In this document: positions 7,487 through 44,443 of the stretch, piece after piece
Layout: each line of letters starts with the position of its first letter
Position numbering within the stretch: the stretch's first letter is position 1
Assembly (NCBI RefSeq): GCF_035084215.1
Contig: NW_027139442.1
Span: 4,464,001-4,528,000, forward strand
Source of the DNA: Heptranchias perlo
Lineage: Eukaryota
Direction: 5' to 3'
Length of the DNA: 64,000 nucleotides
Translations under genes and position numbers: made by a program
Notes under the pieces: generated by a model
Told to the model about the DNA's origin: nothing
The model's input: the letters and a program-made list of their open reading frames with translations, nothing else
Databases searched by the model: none

Positions 7487-7556
7487 ATGGGATATTCACT
7501 AATGATTCAGATAGAACGCGTTTACTATCCCGTTCTTGCAGCCATTGGAGTTCCAG
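7487..7556 (+). CDS. GPR139/142-like GPCR gene 1, coding exon 1
   Basis: MGYSLMIQIERVYYPVLAAIGVP+G, donor G|GTAAG at 7557, phase 1, homologous to exon 1 of gene 2. Confidence 0.88.
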
Positions 7557-8643
7557 GTAAGCCGTTAACTCACCTGTGAATATTGTAAATCGGTGTTTAC
7601 TGTGCTGCTATACTTGACGAATTGTTTTTTCTCCCATCATGTTTTACACCCCCGCGTGTTCTGTTCCATCAGTTGAATGATGGATTTTTTTAAGTCTCTG
7701 CTCTTATGTTCTTGTAGGAGCTGCATTATATCTGTAATAAACGCTCCATATCCAATCATGACATTTTTACTGGATTGTTCTCTGTACTGAATGTAGTGTT
7801 GAACAATGTTACGTCCTTAACTTCTAAACGTTCGGTTTTGTAAAAACTGCATTATATGTTATGGATTTTTGGATGTCTAATTCATGCATTTTAATGTAAT
7901 TTTAATTGAATGAGCAAAGTCAATAAACTGAACACATTATGTATCAAACGAGCGTTGCACTGACACCAGTAACCACAAAAACTAAAGGTTGAATTCATTA
8001 ATTGCGTTGTGTTACCGGGATCAAGAGATCAGGTTTCCTCTAACACTCTGCTGCAGGCTCTCCCTGTGAATCCCAGCTGCTCCTGACATACCCTCCAGCT
8101 CCGACATGGGATTTTCCTTGTATCCCTCCCAATCTCACTCAATGTTTCGAATTCCAACTGCATTTTCCAATCCGATCCGAAGTCTCAAACTCACCGCCGC
8201 GGGTCTCTGGTCCTTTCTCGTTTTGTGCCAGCCCCTGTCGGCTCTCTTAACCCACGGCAAAAGAAAAAAGCAGCACCTCTCCCTGTTCACACAACTTCGC
8301 GGCCCTCGCTCACTTCCCCGTCTATCTGGAGCCCATATTGGATTTAATCCCCTGTATTCCCGGTCTGTAAAGCACCTTCTCCCTTCCCCACCGGCACTGC
8401 GCCCTTACTCGGCCATTCCAGGGGATCCGGTGCTCACATTATTCACTTTCTGTATCAATTTCCCAATTCATTATTGTCAAATGTTTTCCAAATAGTTCTC
8501 TGCCCGGAAGCGCTGGTCAGTGAATCATTTTCCAACGTTTGATGAAGCAATAAAGCTGGGAATTTCACCCCAGACCATGTGAAAATGCTGTCTTGGCTCC
8601 AGGTCTTATCAGTAATTCCTCTGCTTCCTTTTCTCTCTCATAG

Positions 8644-9533
8644 TTAACTTGATGGCGATTGTGATCCTGTACCGAGGAAAGTGCGGACTCTCCAAATGTG
8701 TCTCTCGCTACCTGGTGGGAATGGCGGCGGCTGATCTCCTGGTCGTTATCACTGATGTAATATTGAGGGGGATTGGTGATATTTATTTCCCATTTTCATT
8801 CTTGACCATTACCCCCGTGTGCCGCCTCATCGCCATCCTGATCTCAGCAGTCACAGCGGCTTCTGTCTGGTTAACAGTGGTTTTCACCTTTGATCGATTT
8901 GTGGCGATTTGTTGTCAGAAGCTGAAAACAAAATATTGCACCGAGAAAACGGCGGCTGCTGTTATCGGGGTGGTGAGTGCGCTGAGCTGTTTACTAAACA
9001 TTCCCTGGTACTTTGTAATTGACCCGGAATATATAATGGACAATGTACCCCGGGGTTGTGTCTGGAAACCGACCTTTTTCACTTCACCCGCATGGGCAGC
9101 GTTTGAATTGTTTAATCTTGTGTTAACTCCTTGTCTCCCATTCATTCTGATTTTGCTGTTCAATGTTCTTACCGCCAGGCACATTTTAATGGCCAGTAGA
9201 ATCCGGAGGGGACTCCAGGGCCTCAGCAATGGAGAGAATCACAAGGATCCAGAGATGGAAAACCGAAGGAAATCCATCATTTTACTCTTCAGTATATCAG
9301 GCAGTTTTATATTGTTATGGAGTGCGTTCGTTTTTTTTATTATCTTTCCGCATATAACAAACTCCCAGTACTATATGGCCAGTGACATTGAGTCAGCCGG
9401 ATTCATGCTTCAACTTCTCAGTTCCTGCACCAACACGTGTATTTATGTTGTGACCCAGACTAAATTCAGAGAGGAGCTGAAGAATGGGGTGAAATGCCCA
9501 CTGAATCTAATTGTTACATTGTTTAAATCATAG
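8644..9533 (+). CDS. GPR139/142-like GPCR gene 1, coding exon 2 (spliced protein 319 aa)
   Basis: Pyrimidine tract+TAG acceptor, TT-AAC-TTG in phase; hydrophobic helices, TM1 Asn, AAADL, FDRF, FILLW, SCTNTCIY. Confidence 0.93.
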
Positions 9534-9867
9534 AAACATCTGAAGAATTTTCATCGAAAATTAAACAAAAAGTCAATTAGAGTAGATTTTCACGTTTGTC
9601 GTTGGTGTTAGATGGCCGGTAGCGAATCGTGTGCCTGTTATTCACCGCGCCTGATTTTAGTATCCACTGACATCAATGAGTTCACTAAAGTAACTGATAT
9701 CAATCCAAAACTTTAAATACATTTTGAAATACCAGACAGGAATTGTGTTTTACCCGACAAAGCCGGTGTTGTGAAATGATACAAGATGTGATTCTAACAT
9801 GAAATGATTTACTGTTATTCGTCTGGAAATAATATGATTTCAATATTAAATGTTTAATCCTGAAATC

Positions 9868-9873
9868 AATAAA
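9868..9873 (+). terminator. Candidate polyadenylation signal for GPCR gene 1
   Basis: AATAAA ~335 bp after the stop codon. Confidence 0.45.
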
Positions 9874-11158: not shown

Positions 11159-11543
11159 CCATCGGTCTCACTGGTATTCGGTGAGAGATATCTCGAACGG
11201 GCCATCGGTCTCACTGCTATTCGGTGAGAGATAACTCGAACGGTCCATCATTCTCACTGGTATTCAGTGAGAGATATCTCGAACGGTCCATCGGTCTCAC
11301 TGGTATTCGGTGAGAGATAACTCGAACGGTGCATCATTCTCACTGGTATTCGGTGAGAGATATCTCGAACGGTCCATCGGTCTCACTGGTATTCAGTGAG
11401 AGATATCTCGTATGGTCCATCGGTCTCACTGGTATTCAGAGAGAGGTATCTGGAACGGTCCATCGTTCTCACTGGCATTGCTTGAGAGATATCTCGAACA
11501 CTCCATCGGTCTCACTGGTATTCGGTGAGAGATATCTCGAACG
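11159..11543. repeat. 43-bp minisatellite, ~9 copies
   Basis: Unit ccatcggtctcactggtattcggtgagagatatctcgaacggt at 11159, 11202, etc. Confidence 0.95.
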
Positions 11544-12869
11544 TGTTCGGGAATCTCCTGCTTCACCCGGATTCCCAGTATCAATTCGCCTTTACTTTCG
11601 AAGGACAGCAGTACTCTTGGACCATCCTCTCTCAAGGTTCCCACAACAGCCCCGCTATTGTCCCTGCTCATACGAAAGGAGCTTTGACAGTGCTGTGAAT
11701 CCCCGGGGTGTCATCCAATATGTGGATGAAATCCTAATACACACCGGGACACGGGAAGATCCCCTGCGAATGGTGAGTGAGGTTTTCCATCGACTGGAGT
11801 CCTCTGGACTTAAGGTCAATGTTACTCAGCTGCAGTTGATGAACCCTCAGATCACGTTCCTTGGTGTCCTCCAAGAGGCCGGGTCCCGGTCTGTTGACCA
11901 GGATAAAGTCAAGGTTATCATCTCCTTACCACGGCCCACCGATGTGACCTCTGTGCACTTGTTTCTGGGTATGACAGGATAGAGTGGGGATTTTATCTCT
12001 GATTATACAGAAATTGCTGATCCCCCTATTAACTACTCCGGGAGGGAGAGGAATGGCAGTGAGCAGAGGGCCCAACCAATATCATCACCACCCGTAAGAG
12101 GAGACTTGCTATTGGTCCGATGCTTGCCTCCCCCCACTCTACAAAGGACTGTGCCCTTTACCCCCTTTCCCGATCTGAGAGTACCGTCGCCATGCTTGGG
12201 CGGGTCCATCATGGTAAGACCAATCCCATTAATTTTACATTGACTCGTCTCCGGGGAACTGAGCTGAACTACATTGAATGAGAGAGGCAGATACTTCAAT
12301 TGTATTGCGCCCTCTCTAAGTCCCTCCACATCATTGGAGGTCACAAAGTTAAGGTTTACACCCATCACAGTCCAGGGCTCTTACGAACTGAAGGCCGAAT
12401 TAAAGAGGGAAATGTGTCTCGTGCCCGAATCACTGATTGGCCGCCGAGACCCTCGAGGTCCCACCAGCAGAAGATGTTCGGAGAATTTTTACTAACCTGG
12501 ACCAAAAAGGATTTAAATCTCATGGAATGAAATCAGATTCCAAATTTGAGAGGACCGAGTTGCACAGAGTGGCTCGGGCCAAAGTGAGCAATGCAGTAAA
12601 TTGGACCTAGAGATGGACTCATCGTGACTTTCCCCGTTGGGTAATGGAACACGTGCATGAAATCCTCGCCTTATTTTATCAACACTCAGAATGATTTTCT
12701 CTTGCATTCCAATCTGCATCCGGCGTGTACTCAACTCAAGGTCACTTCCATTGCCTTCTACTCATTCTATCTCAGCACCCCAATCCACAGCAGCCCTCTG
12801 CTTTACGCGATCAGTTAATAAAATCCAAGCTTGCTTTCAACAAATCAGCATTTCTTAGAATCACAACAT

Positions 12870-14815
12870 TATAGATTGCTTACAGCACAGAAGGAGGCCA
12901 TTCGGCCTATCGAGCAATCCAGTTAGTCCCAAAACCCCGCTCGTTCCCCGTCGCCCTGCAATTTATTTCCCTTCAAGTTTTTATCCAATTCCTTTTTGAA
13001 AGCCACGGTTGAATGTGCTTCCGCCACCCTTTCATGTAGTGCATTCTAGATCAACCACTCGCTGCATAAAAAAAGATTTTCCTCACGCCGCCTTTGCTTC
13101 TTTTGCCAATCGTAATTCTGTGTTCTCTGGCTCTCGACCATTCCGCCAATAGGAACAGTTTCTCTTTATTTACTTTCACTAAACCCTTCATGATTTTGAA
13201 CACCTCTATCAAATCTCCTCTTAATCTTCTCTGCTCTAAGGAGAACTACCCCATCTTCTCCAGTCTATCCATGTAACGAAAGTCCCTCATACCTGGAACT
13301 GTTCTGGTAAATCTTTTCTACACCCCCTCTAAGGCCTTCACATCCTTCCAAAAGTGCTGTGCCAAGAATTGGACACAATGCTCTCGTTGTGGCCGAACCA
13401 CTGTTTGATAAAGGTTGAACACAACTTCCTTGTTATTGAACTCTATGCCTCTATTGATAAATCCCAGGCTCCTGTATGCCACTTTAACTGATTCCTCAAC
13501 CTGTCCTGCCACCTTCAAGGATTTGTGCACAAATAACCCCAGGGCTCTCTGTTCCTGCACCTCATTTATTATTGTACCATTTAGATTATATTGCCTCCCC
13601 TCATTCTTCCAACTAAAATGAATCATTTCGCACTTCTCTGCGTTAAATTTCATCTGCCACGTGTCCGCCCATATCACCAGCCTGTCTATATCCTCTTGAA
13701 GTCTATCACTATTCTCCTCACCGTTTACTACACTTCCAAATTTTGTGACATCTCCACATTTTGCAATTTTACCCTGTACACCCAAGTTCACTCATTAATA
13801 TATATCAAGAAAAGCAGTGGTCCCAGCACCGATCCCAGGGGAACACTACTGTACACCGCCCTCCAGTCCGAAAAGCAACAGTTCACCACTACTCTCTGTT
13901 TCCGTTCCCTTAGCCAATTTTATCATGCTGCTACTGCCCCCTTTATTCCATGGGTTTCAATCTTGATGACAAGCCTATTATGCGGCACCTTATCAAATGC
14001 CTTTTGAAAGTCCATATACACCACATATACCGCATTGCCCTCATCAACCCTCTCTGTTACCTCATCAAAAAACTCAATCATGTTAGTTAAACACGATTTG
14101 TCTTTAACAAATCCGTGCTGGCTTTCCTTAATTAATCTACATTTGTCCAAGTGACTATTAATTTTGTCTCGGATAATTGTTTCTAAAAGCTTTCCCAGCA
14201 TCAAGGTTAAATTGACTAGCCTGTAGTCACCGGATTTATCCTTACACCTGTTTTGAACAAGAGTGTAACATATGCAATTCTCCATTCCTCTGGCACCACC
14301 CTTCGTATCTACGGATGTTTGGAAGGTTATGGTAAGCTCCTCTGAAATTTCCACCCCTACTTCCCTCAGCAACCTAGGGTGCATCCCATATGGGCCGGGT
14401 GACTTAACTAATTTAAGTATATCCAGCCTTCCTACGACCTCTCTTTGTCAATTTTTAGCCCATACAGTATCTCAACTATCTCCTCTTTTCCTGTTACTTT
14501 GGCAGCACCTTCTTCCTTGCTAAAGACAGATGCAAAGTACTTATTTGGAACCTCAGCCATACCATCTTCCTCCGTGAGTAGATCTCCTTTACGGTCCCTC
14601 ATCGGCCCACCCCTACTCTTGCTGCCCGTTTACTATTTATATGCCTATAGAAAACTTTTGGATTCCCCTTTATGTTAGCCGCCAGTCTATTCTCACACTT
14701 CCGCTTGGTTCCATTTATTTTCTTTTTCACTTCTCCTCGGTGCTTTCTGTATTCAGCCTGATTCTCACTTGAATTATCAACCTGACATCTGTCATACTCC
14801 CTCTTTTTCTGCTTC
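12870..14815 (-). mobile_element. CR1 LINE, 5'-truncated, frameshifted
   Basis: Minus ORFs 'SQHGFVKDKSCLTNMIEFF..YMDFQKAFDKVPH' and 'WQMKFNAEKCE'. Confidence 0.9.
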
Positions 14816-15539
14816 ATCTTTATTGACCTCATCAAAACGGTCATACCCAGTATTCGGAGTCCTGGTCGTTCACTTCGGTACTTCAATTTGAAGAAAAGTT
14901 TCATTTGTTTTGATGTCCGAACAGGCAAAGATAAGTCCCCTGGAGTCCAGCTGAGGACATCAAGTTTTGAAGTTCATACTGTTGGTCAGACTCACAAGGA
15001 GATGGTCAAAACGTTCCAACTTCTCGATTTGCTGATAGCCTCAGTATAATGAACAGGGCAAGTAACACTTAACTATCAAATATCCTGCTCAGCGTGAAAC
15101 TGACGGGATGGGGTTGACCCCCATTTAACATTCTGCCCATTTCACTTTTGAAATCAATTGTAAAATCAGGCTGGTTTTAACGCGGGCGGCCGAGAACGAA
15201 ACCATCCCCGCCAATAGGGTAAGGTTAAAATCGGGGCATACTGCAGGCGCCAGCAACCAATGTCCCTGACAGTACTAATTATGGGATGGGTTCACCTCTG
15301 TGCACACTTTTAATTTTAATTACAGCTCTTTAATTTATTCAACTACCTTTTTCAAGATGTTAAGTTGTTATTTTAACAGTGTAAATCAACAAAGAACGAA
15401 TTACTAAATAAACAGTGTAATTAATTGATACGCAATTTGAAATCAAATTAATCAATCTACTAATTATAATCTAGACCCCAAGTGATCATATTAGTCCTTG
15501 AAGTAAATTACTGCTGACAATAAATAAATAAATAAATAT

Positions 15540-18031
15540 TAGAAGTAACGCCACGGGCAGTGTGTCGGGACTGCATAATGTGAGGATATGTTGGCAGCGA
15601 GACTGTCTCAGATTGCCATATCTGCAGGAAATGTCTCTGGCTTGAGTCACTCCGGCTCAGAGTTTTTGAGCTGGAGTGTGAGTTAGAGACACTTCGACAC
15701 ACAAGGGAGGGGGAGGAATATCTGGATAGATTTCTCCAGAGCCCAGTCACATCTCAGAGGAAAGCACAGGCCCAGGAAGGGGAGAGTGTGACTGGAAGTC
15801 AGCAGGGTAGGGGTAGCAAAGAATGAGGTGCCACAGACACTGGTCATATCCGACAGGTACAACGTACTTGCGACCGATGAGGATAAGGACGCCGACTGCA
15901 GCTAGGATGCTCAGAATGCTGAACATGGCAACATGGTGCAGGTGGCAGTCCGTTGTGGGGGAGGGATGAGCAAGATAGGAATAGAAAGGTTGACTTCATG
16001 GGTGAAAGAATGTATCCTCTACAGTCACAACCATGAGTCTAGGAGGGTGTGTTGCCTATTTGGTTTCATGGTAAAGAATATTTCGAAGGAACTGCAGAGC
16101 AACCTAGAAAGGGAGGGGCAAGTCCATATTAAGACAACAATGACAAGAGTAATAATATGGTGCGGGGAGGGGGAGATCCAGCTAAGGGAGGATAAAGAGA
16201 TAGAAAGTAAATTAAAAGCAGAACCTCACATGAGGTAATCTTAGGATTACTAGCCGGGTCACGCACTAATTGGCATCGGGAGACACAGATCAGGAAGGTG
16301 AACGCGTGGTGGAAAGATTACTGTGGGAAGGAGGGATTCCATTTCATGGGGCACTGGTATGAGTACTGGTGCAGGAAGGAGCTGCACTGGTGGAACGGGC
16401 TCCACCTGAACCGGAATGGGGCCAAGGTCCCAGCGGAATGGATAAATAGGGCTGTTGATACGACTACAAACTCGTTCGATGGGGTTCGGGATCTGATAGA
16501 AGTAACAGTAGGTTGAAGATTAAAGGTATGAAAGATGAGAGTAAAGGTCAGACTAAGGAAAGGAATAAGTGAAACATAAACGGTCTGGGATCAGATAAAG
16601 TTATAGAACATAAGTACAACATAACTATCAAAATAAAGCGAGAGGAACAATTAATAAAATCAAATTAAATGACTGTACAACAATTTACACAGCATCCGAA
16701 ACAAAATGGGGAACAGGAGGCAATAATTCGTGGAGATGAACCACGTGTAGTAGAGATATCTGAAATATGGTTGCATAAAGAACATGATTTGCAGTTCAAT
16801 ATTGCAGGATATAATATATTTAGAAAGGATAGGGAAGGAAGATGGGGGTGGAGGATCTCTACTAATTGGGGATAACATAATGACAGCAGAAAAACAGGAC
16901 ATAACTATCATTAAGATAGGAACAGAATCCATATGGATTAAGAAAAATGATAAGAATGCGTCGACTACGCTAATCGGGGGACACGACAGACCACCGAACA
17001 GATGAAGGGAGATGGAGGGAGGAATAACTCGGCAAATCTATGAAATAAGTAAACATCATAGAATAGCAATTATGGGAGATTTCAACGACCCCGAATTAAA
17101 CTAGCAAGAAGCGGTAGTGAAAGGAGAGAAAGGGAATGGAGTCTTTACCGTTTGTTCGGGAATCCTTTCTTACCCAATATGTAAGAAGCCTAACAAGAGA
17201 GGAATCAGTAGTGGATCTAGTAATGGGAAATTAAATGGACCAGATAGAGAATTAAGCGTGGGGGAGCATCTAGGCAATATCGATGATAATATAAATAGGT
17301 TTAAAATAATGATTGAGGGATACATAAGTAGGACAAAGGCCAAAATAATAGATTGTAAAAAAAAAAGCTAATTGTGAAGGGACGAAGACGGAGCTAGGGA
17401 AGGTAAACTGGAAAAAAATATTAAGAGACAAAGAGGTGGAACAGCAATGGGAAATATTTTAAAATATGGTTAATAAAGTTCTGCATAAATTCATTCGGCT
17501 AACATATGGAAAAAAAACGAGCCAATAGTGAGACCGTGGATGAATAAAGAAATAAGGGTAACGTTGAATCTCAGTACAAACGCATACAGTTGGTTTATAG
17601 ATAATAAAGGAGAGTGTGACTAAATGGAATACAATGACCTTAGAAAAGAAGATTAAATAAATAACTAGGAAGGAAAAGAGGAATAATGAAATGAAATTGT
17701 GGACGAATATTAAAAGAAAGAGTAAAGTGTTCTATATACAGATGAATATGAAACGGAATATTAAGATAGGGATAGGGCCACTAAGGGATGCACAACATGA
17801 ACTCACAGGCAATGTCACTGAAAAGGCAGAAAGACTGAATAGTTACTTTACTTGATTTTATTTACCAGGGACACTAACATGACATTAGAAGAAGAGATCA
17901 AAACGGAGATCAAGACAGTGAAATAATTGATAAAGTAAACAAACTTAGAGAGGAATAAATCCCGTATCCCAAATCATTGAAGACTCAAAGAAACTAGTGA
18001 AGAGATAGCAGAGGCATTTTTACACATATAT
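15540..18031 (+). mobile_element. Old CR1 LINE (ORF1, endonuclease, start of RT), interrupted
   Basis: Degenerate ORF1 'NAWWKDYCGKEGFHFMGHW..GLHLN', APE 'ISEIWL', 'RPPN'; many stops; resumes at ~22067. Confidence 0.8.
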
Positions 18032-18034
18032 GGA

Positions 18035-21000
18035 ATCATTGAATCATAGAAGTTTACAACATGGAAACAGGCCCTTCGGCCCAACATGTCCATGTCGCCC
18101 AGTTTATACCAATAAGCTAGTCCCAATTGCCTGCACTTGGCCCATATCCCTCTATACCCATCTTACCCATGTAACTGTCCAAATGCTTTTTAAAAGACAA
18201 AATTGTACCCGCCTCTACTACTGCCTCTGGCAGCTCGTTCCAGACACTCACCACCCTTTGAGTGAAAGAATTGCCCCTCTGGACCCTTTTTTATTTCTCC
18301 CCTCTCACCTTCAATCTATGCCCCCTCGTTATAGACTCCCCTACCTTTGGGAAAAGATTTTGTCTATCTACCTTATCTATGCCCCTCATTATTTTATAGA
18401 CTTCTATAAGATCACCCCTTAACCTCCAACTCTCCAGGGAAAAAAGTCTCAGTCTATCAAACCTCTCCCAATAAGTCAAACCATCAATTCCCGGCAGCAT
18501 CCTAGTTAATCTTTTCTGCACTCTTTCTAGTTTAATAATATCCTTTCTATAATAGGGTGACCAGAACTGTACACAGTATTCCAAGTGTGGCCTTACTAAT
18601 GTCTTGTACGACTTCAACAAGACATCCCAACTCCTGTATTCAATGTTCTAACCAATGAAACCAAGCATGCCGAATGCCTTCTTCACCACCCTATCCACCT
18701 GTGACTCCACTTTCAAGGAGCTATGAACCTGTACTCCTGGATATCTTTGTTCTATATCTCTCCCCAACGCCCTACCATTAACGGAGTAGGTCCTGGCCCG
18801 ATTCGATCTACCAAAATGCATAACCTCACGTTTATCTAAATTAAACTCCATCTGTCATTCATCAGTCCACTGTCCCAATTTATCAAGATCACGCTGCAAT
18901 CCTAGATAACCTTCTTCACTGTCCACAATGCCACCAATCTTGGTGTCATCTGCAAACTTACTAACCATGCCTCCCAAATTCTCATCCAAATCATTAATAT
19001 AAACAACAAATAAGAGCGAACCCAGCACCGATCCCTGAAGCACACCGCTGGTCACAGGCCTCCAGTCTGAAAAACAACCCTCTACAACCACCCTCTGTCT
19101 TCTATCGTCAAGCCAATTTTGTATCCAATTGGCTACCTCACCTTGGATCCCGTGAGATTTAACCTTGTGCAACAACCTACCATGCGGTACCTTGTCAAAG
19201 GATTTGCTAAAGTCCATGTAGACCACGTCTACTGCACAGCCCTCATCTATCTTCTTGGTTACCCCTTAAAAAAACTCAATCAAATTCGTGAGACATGATT
19301 TTCCTCTCACAAAACCATGCTGACTGTTCCGAATCAGTCCCTGCCTCTCCAAATGCCTGCAGATCCTGTCTATCAGAATGCACTCGAACAACTTACCCAC
19401 TACAGATGTCAGGCTCACCGGTCTGTAGTTCCCAGGCTTTTCCCTGCCGCCTTTCTTAAACAAAGGCACAACATTTGCTACCCTCCAATCTTCAGGCACC
19501 TCAACTGTAGCTGTCGATGATTCAAATATCTCTGGTAGGGGACGCGCAATTTCCTTCCTAACCTCCCATAACGTCTTAGGATACATTTCATCAGGCCCCG
19601 GAGATTTATCTACCTTGATGCGCGTTAAGACTTCCAGCACCTCCCTCTCTGTAATATGTACACACCTCAAGACATCACTATTTATTTCCCCAAGTTCCCT
19701 AACATCCATGCCTTTCTCAACCGTAAATACCGATGTGAAATATTCATTCAGGATCTCACCCATCTCTTGTGGTTCCGCACATAGATGACCTTGTTGATCG
19801 TTAAGAGGCCCTACTCTCTCTCTCGTTACTCTTTTGCCCTTCATGTATTTGTAGAAGCTCTTTGGATTCTCCTTTGCCTTATCTGCCAAAGCAATCTCAT
19901 GTCCCCTTTTTGCCCTCCTGATTTATCTCTTAACTCTACTCCGGCAATCTCTATACCCTTCAAGGGATCCACTTGATCCCAGCTGCCTATGCATGTCATA
20001 TGCCTCCTTTTTCTTTTTGACTAGGGCCTCAATCTCCCGAGTCATCCAAGGTTCCCTACTTCTACCAGCCTTGCCCTTCACTTTATAAGAAATGTGCTTA
20101 CCCTGAACCCTGGTTAACACAATTTTGAAAGCCTCCCACTTACCAGACGTCCCTTTGCCTGCCAACAGACTCTCCCAATTAACTTCTGAAAGTTCCTGAC
20201 TAATACCATCAAAATTGGCCTTTCCCCAATTTAGAATTTTAACTTTTGGGCCAGACCTATCATTCTCCATCGCTATCTTAAAACTAATGGAACTATGATC
20301 ACTGGTCCCAAAGTGATCCCTCACTAACACTTCTGTCACCTGCCCTTCCTTATTTCCCAAGAGGAGGCCAAGTTTTGCCCCCTCTCTGGTCGGGCCATCC
20401 ACATACTGAATGAGAAATTCCTCCTGACTACACTCAACACATTTCTCTCCATCCAAGCCCCTAATGCTATGGCTGTCCCAGTCAATGTTGGGAAAGTTAA
20501 AGTCCCCTACTATTACCACCCTATTTTTCTTGCAGCTGTCTGTAATCTCCTTACATATTTGCTCCTCAATTTCCCGTTGACTATTTGGGGGTCTGTAGTA
20601 CAATCCTATCAAAGTGATCTCTCCCTTCTTATTTTTCAGTTCTACCCATATAGACTCAGTGGGCGACCCCTCGGATATATCCCCTCTCACGACTGCCGTG
20701 ATGTTCTCCCTAATCAAGAACGCAAATCCCCCTCCTCTCTTACCTCCTGCTCTATCTTTCCTATAGCATCTGTACCCTGGAACATTGAGCTGCCAGTCCT
20801 GCCCCTCCCTGAGCCATGTTTCAGTAATAGCTATAACATTCCAGTCCCATGTAGCCATCCACGCCCTGAGTTCATCTGCCTTGCCCATCAGACTTCTTGC
20901 ATTGAAATGAATGCAGTTTAATCTAGACTTCCCTTGGTCTTTGCCCTGCTTTCTCAGACCATCTGTCCGGTCATGTTTGGTACACTCTCCCTTACTGCCT

Positions 21001-22045
21001 TTTGTTTCTGTCACCACTTTACTTCCCACTGGCTTCCTCATCTGTTCCCATCCCCCTGCCACATTAGTTTAAACCCTCCCCAACAGCACGAGCAAACACT
21101 CCCCCTAGGACATTGTTTCCAGTCCCGCCCAGATGCAGACCGTCCAATTTGCACTGGTCCCACCTCCCCCAGAACCGGTTCCAATGGCCCAGGAATTTAA
21201 ATCCCTCCCTCTTGCACCATCTCTCAAGCCACGTATTCATCCTAGCTATCCTGTCATTCCTACTCTGACTAGCTCGTGGCACTGGTAGCAATCCTAAGAT
21301 TACAACCTTTGAGGTCCTACTTTTTAGTTTAACTCCTAACTCCATAAATTCAGCTTGTAGAAACTCATCCCGTTTTATTATCTATATCGTTGGTACCTAT
21401 ATGCACTACGACAACTGGCTGTTCACCCTCCCCCTCCAGAATGTCCTGCAGCCGCTCCGAGACATCCCTGACCCTTGCACCAGCGAGGCAACATACCATC
21501 CTGGAGTCTCGGTTGCGTCCGCAGAAACGCCTGTCTATTCCCCTTACAATCGAGTCCCCTATCACTATAGCTCTGCCACTCTTTTTCCTGCCCTCCTGTG
21601 CAGCAGAGCCAGCCAGGGTGCCATGAACCTGGCCGCTGTCACCTTCCCCTGGTGAGCCATCTCCCCCAACAGCATTCAAAACGGTATACCTGTTTGAGTG
21701 GGGGATAGCCACAGGGGACGCCTGCACTACCTGCCTGCAACTCTTACTCTGCATGGTGGTCACCCATTCACTTCCTGCCTGTACACCCTTTACCTGCGGT
21801 GTGACCAACTCGCTAAACGTGCTATCCACGAGTTTCTCTGCATCGCGGATGCTCCACAGTGAATCCACCCGCAGCTCCAGCTCCGAGATACGATCGGTCA
21901 GTAGCTGCAGGTGGACACACTTCCTGTACACATGGTCGGCAGGGACACTGGTAGTGTCCATGACTTCCCACATCTTGCAGGAGGGGCATATCGCGGGTGC
22001 GAGGTCTGCTGCCATGACTTGCCTCAGCTTAGATACCCCTTTTAA
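18035..22045 (-). mobile_element. Near full-length CR1 LINE (ORF1 zinc-finger/SGNH esterase, ORF2 APE+RT) with a few lesions
   Basis: ORF1 from ATG 22015 'CPSCKMWE..IGDSIVR..HIGTND'; ORF2 'ITETWL','YRPPN','GDFN','YRPVSL','KFADD'; gaatcat-type tail at ~18035. Confidence 0.95.
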
Positions 22046-22066
22046 ATTGTATGTATATACATATAT

Positions 22067-22270
22067 ATAGTCCAAAGCAAAGAGAATAGTGCCAGAAGAC
22101 AGCTAATGTTATTCCTATGTTCAGAAATGGAGATAGAACAAATCCAGAGAACGATAGAGCAGTTCGTCTAACGGCGGTGGTCGCAAAGATATTGGAAACT
22201 TTACTAATAAATGTAATAGAACACAAATGGAAACCGAAAATTTGATAACGAATAGTCATTACAGATTTCA
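22067..22270 (+). mobile_element. Continuation of the old + strand CR1
   Basis: 'gtgccagaagac..gctaatgttattcctatgttcagaaatgga' resumes RT where 18031 stopped. Confidence 0.7.
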
Positions 22271-22574
22271 AAAGAGGTCAACTTTAAGTACTGGGTTTAC
22301 TTCTGTGCCCGACAGTGAATTGTCAATGGGAGCTGATTGGATTCCATCTTTTTGGAGATGGCCATTGTCTGGCCCTTGTCTTGTGTGAATGCTGCTTGCA
22401 ATAGATCGGCCCAAGCCTTGCTGCATGCAGGCAGGGACTACTTCATTCACTGAGTAAACTGTGTATGACGCACGTTGCCATATATGATAGTGGAGAGGTC
22501 AGGTAGAAACCAAATTTCACCATGCACTCGGTACTTTTTGTTGCAGATGCTTCCTAGCACGTCACCCTCAGCAA

Positions 22575-23465
22575 CACAGGAACAGGATTAGACCATTCAG
22601 CTCCTCAAGCCTGTTGAGCTATTCAGTTAAATCATGGCTGATCTGCACCCAACTCCATTTGTCCGCCATTACTGCTCATTCATTCATACCCTTACCTAAT
22701 AAAACTCTCTCCACCTCAGCCTTGAAAGTTCCAATTGTCCAAGCATCCACAATCTTCTGGGGCGAGAACTCCAGATGTTAACCACCCTTTGTGTGAAAAA
22801 GTGTTTCCTGTTTTCACAGTGCATGGCCTTCCTCTCATATTAAGCTAATGTCCCCTCGGTCTTGATTCGCCCACCAGAGGAAATAGTTTCGATGTATCAG
22901 TGTTACGATCGCTCTACCCGATCGTACTCCTTTATCATTTTAAACACCTCGATTAGATCAACCATCAAATTTATGGACTCAAGAGAATACAAATTAAGTT
23001 CATGCAACCTCTCCTCATAATTTTACCCTTTTAAACCCAGATATTATTCTGGCGAATCGGTGTTATTCCGCCCTCGAAGACTATTGTGTCATCTTAAGGT
23101 GTGGTGCCCAATCTCCAGATCGAGTCTGACCAACGCTCTGTACAACTGAAGCATAACTTTCTCTCCTCTGTATTCCTACCCTCTTGAGATAAAGGCCAAT
23201 ATTCCATTTGCCTTTTTAATAACTTTTTGTTTCTGTGCACTGGCTTTTAGTATTTGTGCAACTGGATACCCAAACCCCTTTGCTCCTCAATAGTTGATAA
23301 TCTCCCTCCATTAAGAAAATGTTATGATTTGTCTTTCTTCGATCCAAAGTGTATGACCTCACACTTCCTCATATTGAACCCCATCTACCACAGTTTTACC
23401 CAATCACTTAATCTCTTTATGTCGCTATGTAACTTCCTGCTCCCATCTATACTACTCACTGTTTT
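22575..23465 (-). mobile_element. CR1 LINE 3' fragment
   Basis: Similar to 80-890; minus ORF 'KLHSDIKRLSDWVKLW'. Confidence 0.7.
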
Positions 23466-23929
23466 CCAAACTTGTCTCTTACACCCACGTGTTGAGCTCC
23501 AGCATGGCTGAGGATCAGAATGTTTATGGAGCCTCCTCCTCGTATTAGTTGCCTGATTGTTGTTACCATATGCCACAATTCTCTACACTTCCTGGAATGT
23601 ATTGAACGCGTAAGGAAGCTTTTTAAGTCGAACGTTGACTTTCCTTTTCGCTTCCTACACGGAGACACCAAACCCAGCCCCCCATTTCACCCCATATACT
23701 CACACTTTTATCGTTCTCAGGATGTGGGTTTCGTTGGCATGGCCTGGATTGATTGCCTATCGCTAATTGCCCTTTGGTGATGATGGGCAACATTCATGAT
23801 CGCTGATTAGTTGTTTTTATACAATGCTTGCTAAGACACTTCAGAAGGCAGCTCGTATCAACAATGTTGCTGCAGGATTGGAGTCACATATAGGCCAGAC
23901 TGGGTAAAGACGTACGAAACTAGTCCATC

Positions 23930-24500
23930 CAGCCTGTCCAACACAATTGTGATGCCTTTTGTGTTCCAGTATATACAGTGCTCAACTCCCACAAAACAAT
24001 GTTATCTCCTGGAGGAGGCGAAGAAACAGATAAAAACCCAGGTTAATTTGGGGGAAAAATCTGGGAAATTCCTCTCTAACCCTCTTTGGCGATCGAAACA
24101 AGTCCCGGAGATCACTCTTGCCCTGATAATTCTATGCATTACTTCACCTACCTTTTGGAAGAGGAGATCTCCGCCCCAGCCAGAAACAGGTCCAGCTCTC
24201 GCTTGAAGGAATTCAGCGAATCGGCGTCCACCGCACGAACCGCCAGCCTGTTCCACAGGTTCACTATTCTCTGAGAAAAGAACCACCTCCTGAGTCCTGA
24301 CATCTAAGCTAGATCTGGCCTTGTACAACTTAAAAGTGTGATTCTTTGCCTTCCCTAAATGATTTAAATGGAACAAACTGTCAATAGGAACACAATCTAT
24401 TCCCTTCATCATCTAATAAACCTTGATCAAATCACCCCAATATTTACTCTGCTCGAATGTTTAGAGTCCAAACTCTTTTAGACTATCTTGATAAGACAAC
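23930..24500 (-). mobile_element. CR1 LINE 3' fragment
   Basis: Minus ORF 'MMKGID..HTFKLYKARSSLDVR', same type as 900-1440. Confidence 0.65.
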
Positions 24501-24945
24501 AGGTTTCCTTCCCTAAAGGGCAATAGTGAACCAGTTTGTCTTTTTTATGACAAGCCGACGGCTTCATAGTCACATGACTTGACATCAGATTTTTATTTCG
24601 AAAATTCCTAATTGAACTTACATTCTCAAACTGTCATGGTGGGATTTGAACTCACGTTCTCTGAATCATTAGTCCAGGCAGTTAGATTACCAGTACAGTA
24701 ACATAACCACCATGCTGCCTTTCTTAGCCTTGATTATTTTTAAGATCTTCAGTGTAACTTTTACTGCAATAAAGCTTTGAAATGTTTCCTGTACCATTTC
24801 ATCAATAGTTTTTAAAACAGGAGACCAGAAACTGACTAAACGGCACTGATTAATCCCTGGAAATTAATCATGGTCAGACCGCACAATTCTGAGCAAAAAT
24901 ATCAATTACCAGCCGAAAACTTTAAGAGACCTTCAATCAAAAAAG

Positions 24946-28955: not shown

Positions 28956-28984
28956 TCAGTGGAGTGTCCCCCTGTATAAATCAG
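28956..28984 (+). promoter_or_regulatory. Core promoter of GPCR gene 2 (TATAAA 28975-28980)
   Basis: TCAGTGGAGTGTCCCCCTGTATAAATCAG, matches the gene 1 motif and spacing to the ATG. Confidence 0.7.
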
Positions 28985-29062: not shown

Positions 29063-29132
29063 ATGCGATATCCCGTCATTATTCAGATAGAATATATATA
29101 TTATCCGCTTCTCGCAGCCGTCGGTGTTCTTG
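29063..29132 (+). CDS. GPR139/142-like GPCR gene 2, coding exon 1
   Basis: MRYPVIIQIEYIYYPLLAAVGVL+G, donor G|GTAAG at 29133; an in-frame ATG at 29042 could add 7 aa. Confidence 0.88.
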
Positions 29133-30057
29133 GTAAGCTAGTATACGTAAGTATTAATTGAATAGATATACATTTCACCTTAAAGCTGCTCTCGTGATGT
29201 ATCTCAAAATGTCATTTTTGATTGATGTGATTGTTATATATTGATATCAGTTCAACGATAGATACATTCTATATTTTCGCCATTTACTTCATGTCATTTT
29301 TCTGTCAGTTTTATAGCGGCATCGAAATTGAAATGGGCTTCTAACCGTCGATTGACCTATTGATATGAAACCTCTTCATTTCAAAGAAACAGGTTAATGC
29401 CTCAGTTAGAAAGGAGAGGGAAATTTCAGATAAATGGAGTAATAATCCATACCACCCACAGCCTGCTGTCAACGCCAATGACTTCGAAATTATCACTGAC
29501 GATAGTAAAAGACCAAAAGTCAAGGTGTTTGATATTCTGCAATATTAGTAATAACACATTTGGAATAAATTAATTAATTCTGCATTCAAAGTATAGGTCA
29601 AAGAATATTATTTGTCGTGAAATGTCAAAACGTTGAAAAATTTGACAGTATAGAAATAGAGACAGTTGGATCATCGCTCTCTGCAGCACGGAGCGTGGCG
29701 CCGGCCGATGAAAATCCGAGGGACTGCAGCAGCACAAGTGGTGGAAGGGAGTAATTACAGTGCTGCAAATTTTCGCAGGCAGTTCCCATTATAAATATGG
29801 AGATATGTATTCATAAGAGGAAGATTTGACAAAGAAAGTACTCCAATGCAATATTTTTATTACAGCAAGATTTATAATTCATGGAAGTTGGCTTGATGTT
29901 CTTATCTTCCTTGTAATTTAGCACCTTCTTTACAAGGACGAGCTGTGCAGCTGAAGGGATCCTATCCATTAATTAATGCAGGAACAGGACTGTGTCAAAC
30001 TGATGGTTTTGCAGTGAGTTGCATGAAAATGCCTTTATTTCTTTCTCTTCATTACAG

Positions 30058-30962
30058 TTAACGTACTCGCCATTGTGATCTTATCTCGAGGAAAGTGCGG
30101 TCTATCCCCATGCATCTCTCGATACCTGTTAGCTATGGCAGTGGGAGATTTGCTAGTCGTTATCACTGATCCGATATTAAGGAGGATTCGTGTGATACAT
30201 TTCCCGGATTCATATTTGTCCGTTTTCCCTGTTTGTAGTGTCATTGTGGCCATGTCTCGTGCCGCTAGAGATAGCTCTGTCTGGTTAACTGTCGCCTTGA
30301 ATTTCGATCGATTTGTGGCCATTTGCTCTGTGAAGCTGAAATCAAACTATTGCACCGAGAAAACTACATTTATCGTAATGGTAACAATTTGCTTGTTAAT
30401 CTCTTTAAAAACCATTCCCTGGTGCTTTGCTTATGAACCCAGTTTTCTACTTGATAATGTTCCGTGGCATTGCAAATTAATATCAAAGTATTATACATCA
30501 CGCGAATGGATAATATTTGACTGGATTGATACCATTTTAATTCCGTTTATTCCATCTTTTGTGATTCTGCTCCTCAATATTTTGACCATCAAACACATTT
30601 TAGTCACCAGTAAAATTCGCAGGAGACTCAGGTGCAGCAGTAGCGGTGATAATCACAGTGATCCTGAGACGGAGAACCGAAGAAAATCCATCATTCTGCT
30701 GTGCACTGTTTCAGGCAGTTTTATACTGTTGTGGACACCATACGTCATAAACTCCGTGTATTTCCAAATTACAGGCACATTTCACATCATATATCCTCAT
30801 AACTCTATATATATCTCACGAAAGCTGGGATATATGCTTCTTCTTTTAAGTTCCTGCACTAATACGTGTATTTATGCAGTAATTCAAACTAAATTCAGAG
30901 AAGAGCTGAAGAATCTGGTGAAATATCCATTGCGACTGATTGTTAAATTAGTTGAGCAATAA
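30058..30962 (+). CDS. GPR139/142-like GPCR gene 2, coding exon 2 (spliced protein 324 aa)
   Basis: Acceptor 'ttcattacag|TTAAC'; RGKCGLS, FDRF, FILLWTP, SCTNTCIY; open to TAA. Confidence 0.93.
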
Positions 30963-34240: not shown

Positions 34241-34274
34241 TCAATTTCATAGCATGGGTGAGTTCCGAAATTCC

Positions 34275-37590: not shown

Positions 37591-37799
37591 GGCCAGTCAG
37601 TTTAATCTCGGTAGTGGGAAAACTTTTAGAATTTAAAATTCGGGACAAAATTTACAATTACTTGGACAAGTGTGGATTAATTAAGTAAAGCCAGCACGGA
37701 TTTGCTAAAGGCAAATCTCGTTTAATCAACGAGATTGAGTTTCTTTGCTGAATTGGGGAGTGGAGGAGAGGCGTTGGATGTGGATGGTGTTTGAGCAAT

Positions 37800-39010: not shown

Positions 39011-39049
39011 CTGATCTCGGTTTTGGCCCTAACATCGAATTTGACACCA

Positions 39050-41109: not shown

Positions 41110-41990
41110 TATCATAGTATCACAGTAGCATCGTAGGCAGAGCACAGGAGGAGGCCATTCGGACCATCTTGCCTGTGCCGGCTCTTTAAACGAGTTTCCA
41201 ATTAGTCCTATTCCACGGCTCTTTCCCCAGAGCCTCCAAATGTTTTCCCTTCAAGTATTTATCCAATTCCCTTTTGAAAATTACCATTGAATCTGATCCC
41301 ACCGCCCTTTCAGGCAGAACATTCCAGATCATTAAAACTCGTTGCATAAAAAAATGTTTCCTCATGTCCCCCCTGGCTCTTTTGCCGATCAACTTAAAGC
41401 TGTGCCCTCTGGTTACCGACCCTTGTGCCACTGGAAACAGTTTCTCCTGATTTACTCTCTTAAAACCGTTCATGATTTTGAACACCTCTATCAAGTCTCC
41501 ACTTAACCTTCTCTGTTCGAAGGAGAACAACCCCAGCTTCTCCAGTCTCTCCACATAACTGAAGTCTCTCATCCCTCTGCAGCATCCTCTCTAAGGCCTT
41601 GACATCCTTCCGAAAGGGTAGTGTCCTGAATTGAACACGATACTCCAGCTGAGGCCCAACCAGTGTTTTATAAAGGTTGAGGATAATTTCCGTGCTTTTG
41701 TACTTCATGCCTCTATTACTAAAGCCAAGGATTCCAAATGATTTTTAACAGCCTTCTCGACTTGTCCAGCCATCTTCAAAGATTTGTGTGTGTACATCCC
41801 AGGTCTCTGTTCCTGAACCCCCTTCAGAATTGTACCATTAAGTTTACATTGCCTCTCCTCATTCTTCCGACCAAATGCATTACCTCACACTTGTCTGCGT
41901 TACATTTGATCTGACATGTGTCTGCCCATTTCACCAGTCCATCTCTGTCCTCCAGAAGTCTGTTACTATCCTCCCCATTGTTTACTGCAG
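41110..41990 (-). mobile_element. CR1 LINE 3' fragment
   Basis: Minus ORFs 41186-41572 and 41460-41708 match the CR1 ORF2 end. Confidence 0.85.
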
Positions 41991-42254
41991 GTGGATTTGT
42001 GTAAAATGTGAATAGTCTGCATAAGGATTGCAATTTAAATGGAAATGGACATTGTGTAAACGGAATCTGTGCGTGTTGAGTAACGCAGGTTCAACACTCG
42101 CCAATCCGAGATTTTCCCAATCACTGGGGAAATAAATCGCTGACTGGCGATTGTAAACCTCCATCAGTGTGTTTGGGATCTCAGCAGCCAACGGAGCTGG
42201 GGAATGATACACCATTGATTGAGGCTCAGAGAGAGTCGGGAACTGATAAATGGA

Positions 42255-43245
42255 GTAGAATCATCGCATCAGAGAAAGGCTACAGCACGGAAGGTGGCCA
42301 TTGGGCCCATCGAGTCCATGCCAGCTCTATGCAAGAGCAATCCAGCTAGTCCACTCCCCCGCCCTATCAATGTATCCCTGCAAATGTTTTCCTTTCAAGT
42401 ACTTATCCAGTTCCATTTAAAGGCCATGATTGAATCTGCCTTCACCATCTCCTAACGCAGTGCATTCCAGATCATGAACATTCGCTGAGTACAAAGGTTT
42501 TTTCCTCAAGTGGCCTTTGGTTCATTTGACAATCATCGTAAATCAATGTCCTCTAGTTCATGACACTTCCGACAATGGGAACATTTTCTCTCGGTCTCCT
42601 CTGCCCAGACCCTTCATGATTTTGAATGCCTCTATCAAAATTCCTCTCAACCTTCCCTGTTCCAAGGAGAACAACCCCAGCTTCTCCAGTCTATCCACGT
42701 AACTAAAGTGCTTCATTCCGAGGAATGATTCCAGTAAATTTCTTCTGCACCATCTCTAAGGCCTTCACATCTTTCCTAAAGTGCGGTGCCCAGAACTGGA
42801 CACAATACTCCAGTTGTGGCCGAACCAGTGTTTTATAAAGGTTCATCATGACTTCTTTGCTTTCGTACCCTATGTCTTTATTTATAAACTCAGATCCCCA
42901 TATGCTTTTTAACCACTTTCTCAACCTGCCCTGCCACCTTCAATGATTTGTGCATATGCCCCTAGACCTCTCTGCTCCTGAACCCCTTTTAGAATTGTGC
43001 CCTTTAGTTCATATTGCCTCGCCTCATTCTCCTACCGAAATGTATCACCCCGCAGTTTTCAGTGTTAAATTTCATCTGCCACGTGTCACGCCCACGCCAC
43101 CAGCCTATATAAACCACCTTGAAGTCTATCCCTATCCTCCTCACTGTTCACAGCAGTTCCAAGTTTTGTGTCATCTGCAAACTTGGAAATTGTGCCCTCT
43201 ACACCCAAGACCAAGTCATTAATATATATCAAGAAAAGCAGTGGC
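42255..43245 (-). mobile_element. CR1 LINE 3' fragment
   Basis: Minus ORF 'LYKTLVRPQLEYCVQFWAPHFRKD'. Confidence 0.85.
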
Positions 43246-43544
43246 AGAGTTGAGAAAAGATCAGAGGAAACTTAAGTCGGCGGCGGTAGAAATGGACAAA
43301 AAAGGAAAATGAGACCAGGGATTTTGCAACAATGTCACAGGATGAACCCCTTCCCTTCGATCAATCTCTCTTAAATTAAAAAAGAACACTCTGCCAGCTC
43401 TGCGTTGTTTTATTTTCCAACTCCGCTCGGATTTACCTCTGACCCTCCAAGCTACCACTTCATGGATTCTCTCTAACTCTCCGAGTGATCTATTTTGTAC
43501 CGAGTGCGGTGATAATTCCCTTTATCTCTCTCTCTCTCTTACAG

Positions 43545-44443
43545 TTAACTTGGTAGCGATTGTGATCCTGTCCCGAGGCAAATGCGGTCTCTCCAAATGT
43601 ATCACTCGCTACCTGGTGGGAATGGCAGCGGCCGATCTAACGGTGGTGATCATTGAAGTCATTATGAAGCGAATTAACAACATTTACGTGCCAGTAAATG
43701 TTCTGTTCATCACTCCAATATGTGCCCTGAAACTTGTGACGAAGATGGCGGCCCTGGACTGTTCGGTCTGGTTCACGGTCGCTTTCACCGTCGATCGCTT
43801 TGTAGCCATTTGCTGTCAGAATCTCAAACCAAAGTTTTGTACACAAAGGATGGCGAGCCTTGTTGTAGGGACCGTGTGTATGCTAGGCTGTTTGAGGAGC
43901 ATCCCCTTTTACTTTGTGTACCAACCCCAATTTATAATTAATGGCGTCCCGTATTTCTGCATTTTAACGGCTGCCTATCATACCTCGCCCTGGTGGGCAG
44001 CGTACGAGTTTTTCGACAGCATTTTAACCCCTTTACTGCCCATCTTTTTCATTCTGTTTTTCAATGTTCTCACCGCCAAACACATTATAATGTCCAATAT
44101 AGTCCGCAGGACACTCCTGAGGAACGTCGATAATCACAATGACCCAGAGACCGAGAACCGAAAGAAATCCATGATTTTGCTCTTCACTCTATCCGGCAAT
44201 TTCATTCTACTCTGGGCCACGTATGTTGTACATTCCTTAAGTTGGCGGGTGAAGAACTACAATTATACAGACAGATACTACACTAACCCGATATACATCA
44301 ATCAGCAAACGGGATACATGCTGCAGCTTCTCAGCTCCTGCAACAACACGTGTATCTATGGACTGACACTGAGGAAATTCAGAGAGGAGCTGAGGAACGG
44401 GGTGAAATATCTGTTTACACTGAATGGCAGAGTATGTAAATAA
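43545..44443 (+). CDS. GPR139/142-like GPCR gene 3, main coding exon (first exon not found)
   Basis: Acceptor '(ct)n tacag|TTAACTTG'; intact 297-aa ORF with RGKCGLSKC, VDRF, FILLW, SCNNTCIY. Confidence 0.9.

What the first reader, a model, noticed from the sequence alone, without database searches (positions are those of the whole stretch)
7487..44443. Tandem cluster of intact, divergent GPR139-like orphan GPCRs: candidate expanded sensory receptor repertoire
Seen: three co-oriented open receptors amid decayed repeats, very short N-terminus, DRF for DRY, N(T)CIY replacing NPxxY, conserved intracellular loops (DPExENRR/KKSI) but highly variable extracellular loops and TM tops. Known: mammals have single GPR139 and GPR142 genes that sense aromatic amino acids. 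Inference: constant signalling face plus variable ligand face fits a diversified chemosensory or immune-sensing family distinct from OR/TAAR/V1R/V2R.
Basis: partly seen in the sequence, partly recalled or inferred. Interest (0 to 1): 0.75.

Follow-up and report, generated by a model that had tools for sequence, protein, structure and literature searches.

The report
Hidden giant shark receptor family
These shark genes belong to a very large, mislabelled family of cell-surface receptors that multiplied in sharks and rays while staying apparently single-copy in amphibians, and whose predicted binding pockets have diverged widely, so they are likely an overlooked set of chemical sensors in animals thought to have few.

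Summary
Real, with two corrections. Two genes are complete two-exon class A GPCRs (319 and 324 aa). The third has an open exon 2 but no exon 1 in the window. They are not GPR139 orthologues despite the database label. The family profile scores human GPR139 at 77 bits, against salamander 232, coelacanth 214 and amphioxus 127.

Gene 1 finds 2,646 relatives at 90% clustering. All 229 named rows listed for genes 1 and 3 are elasmobranchs (21 species); 56 clusters are led by Heptranchias perlo. The elasmobranch copies form one clade (97/86), sister (99/99) to a gene seen once per species in 20 amphibians and in sturgeon. Pocket identity is 97% among amphibian orthologues (whole protein 78%) but 34% among elasmobranch paralogues (whole 59%). 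Four of five GPR139 Trp/Phe-pocket residues are not kept in any window gene.

This is a birth-and-death receptor repertoire with diversified pockets, probably larger than the known shark olfactory repertoire (mean 44 genes). Expression and ligands are untested. A chemosensory role is most likely (0.45); immune sensing is the main rival (0.25). Ten paper searches found no description of the expansion.

The parts
7376..7405 (+). Conserved promoter-like block ending in a TATA-type box, about 80 nt before the ATG of gene 1
   Evidence: 2 matches in the window, 0 in 100 shuffles; the pattern was written from these two sites, so the shuffle count shows only rarity
7487..7556 (+). Gene 1 exon 1: 23 codons plus 1 nt, N-terminus and first half of TM1
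   Evidence: profile score 69
7557..8643 (+). Gene 1 intron, phase 1, GT-AG, 1,087 nt
   Evidence: splicing inferred from sites and from homologous gene models, not seen in RNA
8644..9533 (+). Gene 1 exon 2; whole protein 319 aa; nearest listed relatives 84-86% (H. perlo)
28957..28984 (+). Same promoter-like TATA block before gene 2
29063..29132 (+). Gene 2 exon 1
   Evidence: profile score 57
29133..30057 (+). Gene 2 intron, phase 1, GT-AG, 925 nt
30058..30962 (+). Gene 2 exon 2; whole protein 324 aa; divergent member, at most 57% (BLAST) or 60% (tree alignment) identical to fetched relatives; not used as a search query itself
43545..44443 (+). Gene 3 exon 2, open, 298 aa after the split codon; 297 of 298 identical to H. 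perlo model XP_067835222.1; the one difference is Asn for a Thr held by 55 of 57 aligned members; no exon 1 in the window, so likely a 5'-truncated recent duplicate
11314..27104 (.). Spacer between genes 1 and 2 with broken retroelement frames (RVT_1, endonuclease); context, not part of the genes

Best explanation
The window holds two complete genes and one exon-1-less copy of a very large shark-and-ray family of class A GPCRs, descended from an apparently single-copy jawed-vertebrate gene distantly related to GPR139, and these receptors likely act as a repertoire of sensors for outside chemicals in sensory epithelia. Shown: gene anatomy, family size as a lower bound, tree position, and pocket divergence at positions assigned by generic numbering. 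Inferred, step 1: the ancestor had one fixed ligand, because amphibian and sturgeon orthologues keep F3.33, a basic 6.51 and N7.39 like the GPR139 amino-acid pocket. Step 2: after tandem duplication each copy kept the G-protein face and changed the pocket, so copies would recognise different ligands, most likely small peptides or amino-acid derivatives. Step 3: they would be expressed sparsely in nose, taste, skin or gill chemosensory cells and signal through Go/Gi or Gq. Step 3 has no direct evidence here.
For: Size: 2,646 hits for gene 1 and 1,847 for gene 3 at 90% clustering. Of 235 distinct rows listed, 229 are named and all are elasmobranchs (21 species). 56 are led by H. perlo, on 23 different scaffold lengths (ids read by eye, tallied). 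Origin: 19 elasmobranch rows form a clade (97/86), sister to amphibians plus sturgeon (99/99); AU tests reject two alternatives (p=0.011, p=0.0001). Contrast: the salamander gene finds 20 amphibian clusters each named for a different species, 1 sturgeon and 4 elasmobranch rows (25 of 25). Pocket: 27 generic pocket positions average 2.21 bits vs 1.63 for 37 neighbouring helix positions (p=0.006); the most variable include 45.52, 3.32, 2.61, 2.65, 3.33, 7.39. Pocket identity is 97% among 22 amphibian sequences (whole 78%) vs 34% among 57 elasmobranch ones (whole 59%); in pairs of 65-85% whole identity it is 97% (194 pairs) vs 46% (381 pairs). Constraint: dN/dS 0.21-0.33 between window genes. Turnover: gene 3 is a near-identical truncated copy. 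Context: cartilaginous fishes average 43.8 known olfactory receptor genes despite many sensory neurons (PMC10869828 passages). 111 of 229 gene models lack the canonical exon 1 by a rough pattern test, a weak hint of little transcript support in commonly sampled tissues.
Against: No tissue evidence was obtained. In catshark, the 50 most abundant and specific genes of the brain-plus-olfactory library held no GPCR, and V2Rs are treated as the main olfactory family (PMC11979771 passages; PMC10116579 passages); low per-gene expression would also miss V2Rs from such a list. The nearest neighbour is an FcRL/LILR-type Ig receptor gene, which fits an immune region. Low pocket identity could be relaxed constraint rather than selection; site-wise dN/dS needs DNA that was not available. 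Paralogues were compared with orthologues, which always favours a difference. The 57 aligned members were picked as top hits of genes 1 and 3 and filtered for canonical models. Human GPR139 and GPR142 are not in the tree.
Confidence: 0.45

Rival explanations
1. The family is an immune repertoire: leukocyte or barrier-epithelium receptors for microbial or damage-derived peptides, working like formyl peptide receptors or MRGPRs, with pockets diversified by pathogen pressure.
For: A minus-strand gene with three Ig exons and a membrane exon lies 10 kb downstream (54349-62420); best solved matches are FCRL5, PirB and CHIR, and Atlas neighbours include KIR3DX1 and FCRL2. Fast turnover and pocket variability fit equally. 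Some catshark OR genes are expressed most in spleen. Linkage of FPRs to the mammalian leukocyte receptor complex is recalled, not tested.
Against: One neighbour in one window; H. perlo copies sit on at least 23 scaffolds whose neighbours were not seen. No mention in the one readable supplement of a nurse shark B-cell paper or 7 readable of 10 files of a shark heart transcriptome paper; both are weak negatives. Spleen and blood are commonly in annotation RNA (own knowledge), yet about half of the gene models miss exon 1.
Confidence: 0.25
2. The copies are internal or reproductive sensors (gut nutrient or peptide sensing like GPR142, or gamete and pheromone signalling), expanded for tissue-specific tuning.
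For: GPR139 and GPR142 respond to L-Trp and L-Phe, and GPR142 acts in gut and pancreas (PMC7318219 passages). The wider clade shares an origin with protostome MIP, FMRFamide and myosuppressin receptors (PMC8514136 passages). Some catshark V2Rs are expressed in testis and rectal gland.
Against: An endogenous ligand predicts a conserved pocket, as in the amphibian orthologues (97%); elasmobranch pockets are less conserved than the rest of the protein. No matching expansion of peptide genes is known to me (not searched).
Confidence: 0.15
3. The expansion is largely neutral: repeat-driven segmental duplication in unstable regions, with a few working copies and many decaying ones, and pocket variation from relaxed selection.
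For: Dense retroelement and satellite DNA; gene 3 lacks exon 1; many clusters hold near-identical members; no transcript shown.
Against: Genes 50-56% identical stay open with dN/dS 0.21-0.33. The gene 3 subfamily is kept in both sharks and rays (clade 99; 58-79% identity). 26 columns are invariant in 58 aligned sequences. The promoter block is kept while introns do not align. Variation concentrates on pocket positions rather than neighbouring helix positions.
Confidence: 0.15

Closest known systems
Human GPR139 (PDB 7VUG, 9M42) and GPR142
   Same: Best solved-structure match by sequence for the family profile (76.9 bits vs 55 for the next) and for every relative tested. Two exons. No Pro at 7.50, Asn at 5.58, similar TM3 and TM7 stretches.
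   Different: Only 32-41 bits for single proteins and 20-21% identity in structural alignment, whereas true GPR139 is 70% identical from human to zebrafish. Of F3.33, H5.43, W6.48, R6.51 and N7.38/39 the window genes keep only W6.48. The family has the C3.25 and ECL2 cysteine pair, which GPR139 lacks in the alignment. Many copies against one.
Unnamed amphibian/sturgeon gene annotated 'probable GPR139' (e.g. Pleurodeles XP_069092602.1)
   Same: Sister clade (99/99); shares the short N-terminus and the DPE..RR.S motif before TM6. Best candidate for the co-orthologue.
   Different: One cluster per named species and a nearly fixed pocket; 32-33% identical to elasmobranch members. No function known to me.
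GPR210A/GPR210B and a third set in Rinne et al. 2019 (PMC6504862)
   Same: Extra GPR139/142-related subtypes in coelacanth, gar and fishes, matching in kind the coelacanth, teleost, bichir and caecilian paralogues found here.
   Different: That survey mentions no shark or cartilaginous fish (0 occurrences) and no expansion; its Ensembl ids could not be matched to my sequences.
Vertebrate chemoreceptor repertoires (OR, TAAR, V1R/ORA, V2R/OlfC, T2R) and FPR/MRGPR expansions
   Same: Compact genes in tandem clusters, birth and death, constant signalling face with variable pocket.
   Different: Different ancestry; only 7tm_1 matches in Pfam. Sensory expression, their defining trait, is untested.
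RefSeq models 'probable G-protein coupled receptor 139' of sharks and rays
   Same: The same sequences; gene 3 is 297/298 identical to one.
   Different: These are automatic labels. Some members carry other names (SIFamide, tachykinin 86C, GPR15-, GPR39-, vasopressin V2-, capa-like), which hides the family.

Membership tests
Class A (rhodopsin) GPCR | 7tm_1 match above cut-off and seven helices | tested here: met
   AlphaFold model of the gene 3 twin, pLDDT 81.6, seven helices plus helix 8; peptide-type class A folds at Z 27-29, rmsd about 3, about 280-300 aligned
Class A (rhodopsin) GPCR | N1.50, D2.50, D/E-R3.50, W6.48, C3.25 with ECL2 Cys | tested here: met
   56, 57, 57/56, 57, 56 and 57 of 57 aligned members
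Class A (rhodopsin) GPCR | NPxxY in TM7 | tested here: not met
   0 of 238 proteins; NTCIY in 210. Also absent in GPR139 and in all outgroups, so a clade trait, not decay
GPR139 orthologue | High identity to human GPR139 (70% for zebrafish) | tested here: not met
   20-21% structural identity, 32-41 bits
GPR139 orthologue | Closer to GPR139 than to other subfamilies | tested here: not met
   Gene 3 twin: 143 bits to salamander, 138 to coelacanth, 64-80 to amphioxus, 41 to GPR139. Amphioxus scores about 170 to the coelacanth gene, 80 to GPR139. Scores only; GPR139 was not in the tree
GPR139 orthologue | Trp/Phe pocket F3.33, H5.43, W6.48, R6.51, N7.38/39 | tested here: not met
   1 of 5 kept in each window gene; across 57 members F 13, H 23, W 57, R 9, N 3
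GPR139/142-related clade (wide sense) | GPR139 is the best solved match; no P7.50; N5.58; two exons | tested here: met
GPR139/142-related clade (wide sense) | Same intron position as GPR139 | not testable with these tools
   no GPR139 gene DNA could be fetched
GPR142 orthologue | Clusters with GPR142 | not testable with these tools
   no GPR142 sequence was returned by any search
GPR210A/B of Rinne et al. 2019 | Clusters with ENSLACP00000014196 or ENSLACP00000015589 | not testable with these tools
   ids seen could not be matched to sequences held
OR, V1R/ORA, V2R/OlfC, T2R | Match to their Pfam models | tested here: not met
   only 7tm_1 at E<=0.01 for 3 of 3 proteins
TAAR | Aminergic affinity and Asp at 3.32 | tested here: not met
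   3.32 is I, S, K in the window genes and takes 14 residues in the family; one 5-HT receptor and no TAAR among the best 60 of 314 PDB matches
Chemoreceptor repertoire (works like) | Tandem clusters, high copy number, turnover | tested here: met
Chemoreceptor repertoire (works like) | Pocket more variable than the rest of the protein | tested here: met
Chemoreceptor repertoire (works like) | Positive selection at pocket codons | tested here: inconclusive
   only three DNA sequences; synonymous sites saturated at pocket codons
Chemoreceptor repertoire (works like) | Sparse expression in sensory neurons; response to external ligands | not testable with these tools
   no run on record as RNA with tissue label

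The most novel reading that the evidence does not exclude
This is an unrecognised fifth vertebrate olfactory receptor family and the largest one in sharks and rays: hundreds of receptors, built from a neuropeptide-receptor lineage that bony vertebrates keep as one gene, expressed one or few per neuron in the nose. It would overturn the view that sharks smell with about 40 receptors.
Probability: 0.3. Interest if true: 0.92.

Novelty: new variant of a known kind. Interest (0 to 1): 0.7.

Why it matters
Sharks have large olfactory organs but on average 43.8 known olfactory receptor genes (PMC10869828), and a whale shark genome paper speaks of a relative paucity of GPCRs in cartilaginous fishes (PMC8455134). 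A family with at least 56 clusters led by one shark species, among only 235 rows seen, makes that puzzle directly testable with existing RNA data and in situ probes. If the family is immune instead, it is an undescribed innate receptor repertoire in the oldest lineage with adaptive immunity. Either way the 'GPR139' label is wrong, and the single-copy amphibian orthologue with a fixed pocket offers a clean route to the ancestral ligand.

Tried and rejected
Expression: no RNA holder on record; 9 runs listed, best share 0.30. Four were laid on 7300-9900 at 80% likeness: 579, 602, 120 and 84 contigs, piled on the exons, but some cross exon-intron borders and no 7556-8644 joint is among the 15 joints shown (22 not shown). 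This fits DNA of a multicopy family as well as RNA, so it is no evidence on expression. Eight unnamed Logan proteins carry no exon-1 peptide.

Genome: none held, so no copy count and no neighbours beyond the window. A metagenome scan gave 144 pattern matches, none confirmed.

Fold searches rank many peptide receptors alike and do not point to a ligand. Rfam and ARAGORN found nothing.

Exon 1 for gene 3: blastn, tblastn, local alignment with shuffles, profile and donor scans all negative. Use of gene 2's exon 1 is phase-compatible but has no support.

A 26-bp array before the promoters, reported for another genome: not found here (best period-26 match 0.40-0.43, background level).

Literature: ten searches, terms GPR139, GPR142 or 'receptor 139' with shark, cartilaginous fish, chondrichthy-, elasmobranch, expansion, single-cell; none showed a description of the expansion. 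Searches were too loose (40 of 1,986 and 40 of 22,674 listed). 'GPR210' and a strict GPR142-plus-shark search were not run. Supplements searched without a hit for the family: whale shark (large orthogroup files unreadable), skate (3 files read, 1 not). The catshark 'Sensory Shark' supplement, which may hold tissue data, could not be read, and the Squalomix preprint's tandem-cluster tables were not seen. PMC11886862 gave 0 hits for my terms.

Amniote or teleost orthologues of the amphibian gene were not listed, but that word search also found only 4 of the many elasmobranch members, so loss is not shown. No chimaera is among the named rows; absence is not shown.


Full report
Observation. The window is shark DNA; gene 3's exon 2 is 297 of 298 residues identical to a Heptranchias perlo gene model. 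Three + strand frames encode class A GPCRs. Genes 1 and 2 have a 70-nt first exon, a phase-1 GT-AG intron inside TM1 and a long second exon, giving open proteins of 319 and 324 aa. Both carry the same TATA-type block about 80 nt before the ATG, although their introns do not align. Gene 3 has an open second exon and acceptor but no first exon anywhere in the 64 kb, while its twin in the database has one; it also has Asn at a site that is Thr in 55 of 57 members. I read it as a likely truncated recent duplicate. The three share 50-56% identity.

Family size. Gene 1 finds 2,646 and gene 3 finds 1,847 relatives at 90% clustering; only the best 120 of each were listed. Of 235 distinct rows, 229 are named, all sharks, rays or skates, from 21 species, mostly labelled 'probable GPR139'. 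56 rows are led by H. perlo and lie on 23 different scaffold lengths (read by eye; tally). If all 2,646 hits were family members from those species the mean would be over 100 per species; I could not check the unlisted rows. A profile of 58 members finds 138 clusters at 50% identity with E below 1e-30.

What it is related to. Human GPR139 is the best solved match, but weak: 76.9 bits for the profile, 32-41 bits for single proteins. The same profile gives 232 bits to a salamander gene, 214 to coelacanth, 187 and 148 to teleosts, 127 to amphioxus, 117 to caecilian and 114 to a bichir-group protein. An amphioxus-type protein scores about 170 bits against the coelacanth gene and 80 against GPR139, so the split from GPR139 is inferred to be older than vertebrates; GPR139 and GPR142 themselves could not be put in a tree. 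In a 32-row tree (LG+G4) the 19 elasmobranch-clade rows group at 97/86 and are sister to amphibians plus sturgeon at 99/99; a 68-row quick tree under a mixture model agrees at 86 and 95. AU tests reject one clade of all bony-vertebrate rows (p=0.011) and a union with the coelacanth-teleost group (p=0.0001); both groups were named after I saw the tree. The salamander gene finds 20 amphibian clusters, each named for a different species, one sturgeon and four elasmobranch rows. The relation is therefore many-to-one.

Pocket. An AlphaFold model of the gene 3 twin gives seven helices and an ECL2 hairpin (pLDDT 81.6); fold searches return peptide receptors without separating them. Across 57 members the outer half is twice as variable as the inner half. 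That alone is generic. More specific: 27 pocket positions chosen from standard class A numbering (own knowledge, picked) vary more than 37 neighbouring helix positions (2.21 vs 1.63 bits, p=0.006). In 22 amphibian orthologues the same positions are 97% identical against 78% for the whole protein; in elasmobranch paralogues 34% against 59%; in pairs of 65-85% whole identity 97% against 46% (mean whole identity 77% and 71%). GPR139 binds Trp and Phe through F3.33, H5.43, W6.48, R6.51 and N7.38/39 (PMC5430874 passages). Amphibians keep F, W, K and N there; each window gene keeps only W. Window pairs have dN/dS 0.21-0.33 with dS 1.0-1.8, so the proteins have been under constraint; selection on the pocket could not be measured.

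How it likely works. Shown: a multi-copy, tandem, turning-over family with a constant inner face and a scrambled pocket. Inferred: an ancestral receptor for one amino-acid-like or peptide ligand was copied many times in elasmobranchs, and copies came to read different ligands through a shared G-protein route. Where they act is open. I put external chemosensing at 0.45, because the anatomy matches chemoreceptor repertoires and sharks have few known ones (mean 43.8). Immune sensing is 0.25, helped by the neighbouring FcRL/LILR-type gene. Internal or reproductive sensing and mostly neutral growth are 0.15 each. Against the nose: catshark work found V2Rs robustly expressed there and no GPCR among the top 50 specific genes. 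The read data tried here could not tell RNA from DNA.

What is known. The sequences sit in RefSeq under automatic names. Rinne et al. 2019 noted extra GPR139/142 subtypes in bony fishes and did not include sharks (passages). GPR139/142 share an origin with protostome MIP, FMRFamide and related receptors (PMC8514136 passages). Ten searches of the held library showed no paper on the expansion; two were too loose, subscription journals are mostly missing, and unread supplements may list it. Papers seen as passages only: PMC6504862, PMC11979771, PMC8514136, PMC5430874, PMC7318219, 10.1101/2025.06.08.657570, PMC8455134 (plus supplement searches), PMC10620051, PMC12294341, PMC10869828, PMC10116579; PMC11886862 no passages; PMC5278576, PMC10115646, PMC10529500 supplement searches only.

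Earlier notes of this scan, read at the end, describe the same family in other shark and ray genomes with about a thousand copies; these are unchecked AI notes and not independent support. One says the family is found only in cartilaginous fishes: that may hold for the expansion, but the lineage has an amphibian and sturgeon member here. Another reports a 26-bp array before every copy; none precedes genes 1 or 2 here.

Verdict. Observation partly confirmed (two complete genes, one partial). Interpretation partly supported. A new variant of a known kind: an independently built receptor repertoire from a lineage not linked to vertebrate sensing in the papers I saw. Interest 0.7.

Noticed in passing
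window 54349-62420, - strand: Ig-superfamily receptor gene: Ig exons at about 62420-62130, 60457-60167 and 56501-56205, membrane exon 54438-54349. Best solved matches FCRL5, PirB, CHIR-AB1; Pfam Ig_2, Ig_3, weak Ig_C19orf38. An Arg at the outer end of the membrane helix recalls activating LILR/OSCAR-type receptors (recalled). The first two Ig exons and their flanks look like an internal duplicate. Cytoplasmic exons and leader not found.
   Followed up: partly
window 29132 to 43545: All exon-1 donors and exon-2 acceptors share phase 1, so gene 2's exon 1 could in principle splice to gene 3's orphan exon 2 across 14.4 kb. No evidence either way.
   Followed up: no
window exon 2 of the three genes: Fourfold-degenerate sites differ less in segments coding the inner face (59 of 139) than the outer face (37 of 62) (three non-independent pairs). 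May reflect gene conversion that homogenises the signalling face.
   Followed up: partly
window 7376-7405 and 28957-28984: The conserved block before the TATA box holds a TCCCCTG run that resembles half of an Olf/EBF site (recalled). EBF acts in both olfactory neurons and B cells, so it would not separate the rivals.
   Followed up: no
proteins P0328, P0339, P0350, P0367, P0381, P0392, P0373, P0361: At least three further vertebrate groups and amphioxus genes are all labelled 'GPR139' yet are distinct from it; a little-described chordate subfamily that mostly keeps a basic residue at 6.51.
   Followed up: partly
window 31224-32156, 44861-46920, 2570-3234, 3962-4384, 33088-33712: Satellite arrays of 39, 52, 90, 47 and 46 bp; the 39- and 52-bp arrays lie just behind genes 2 and 3, and the 39-bp array gives two spurious long frames.
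   Followed up: no
window 3775-3925 and about 51450-51680: A short element with an internal inverted repeat appears at both places by eye; looks like a small non-autonomous transposon.
   Followed up: no
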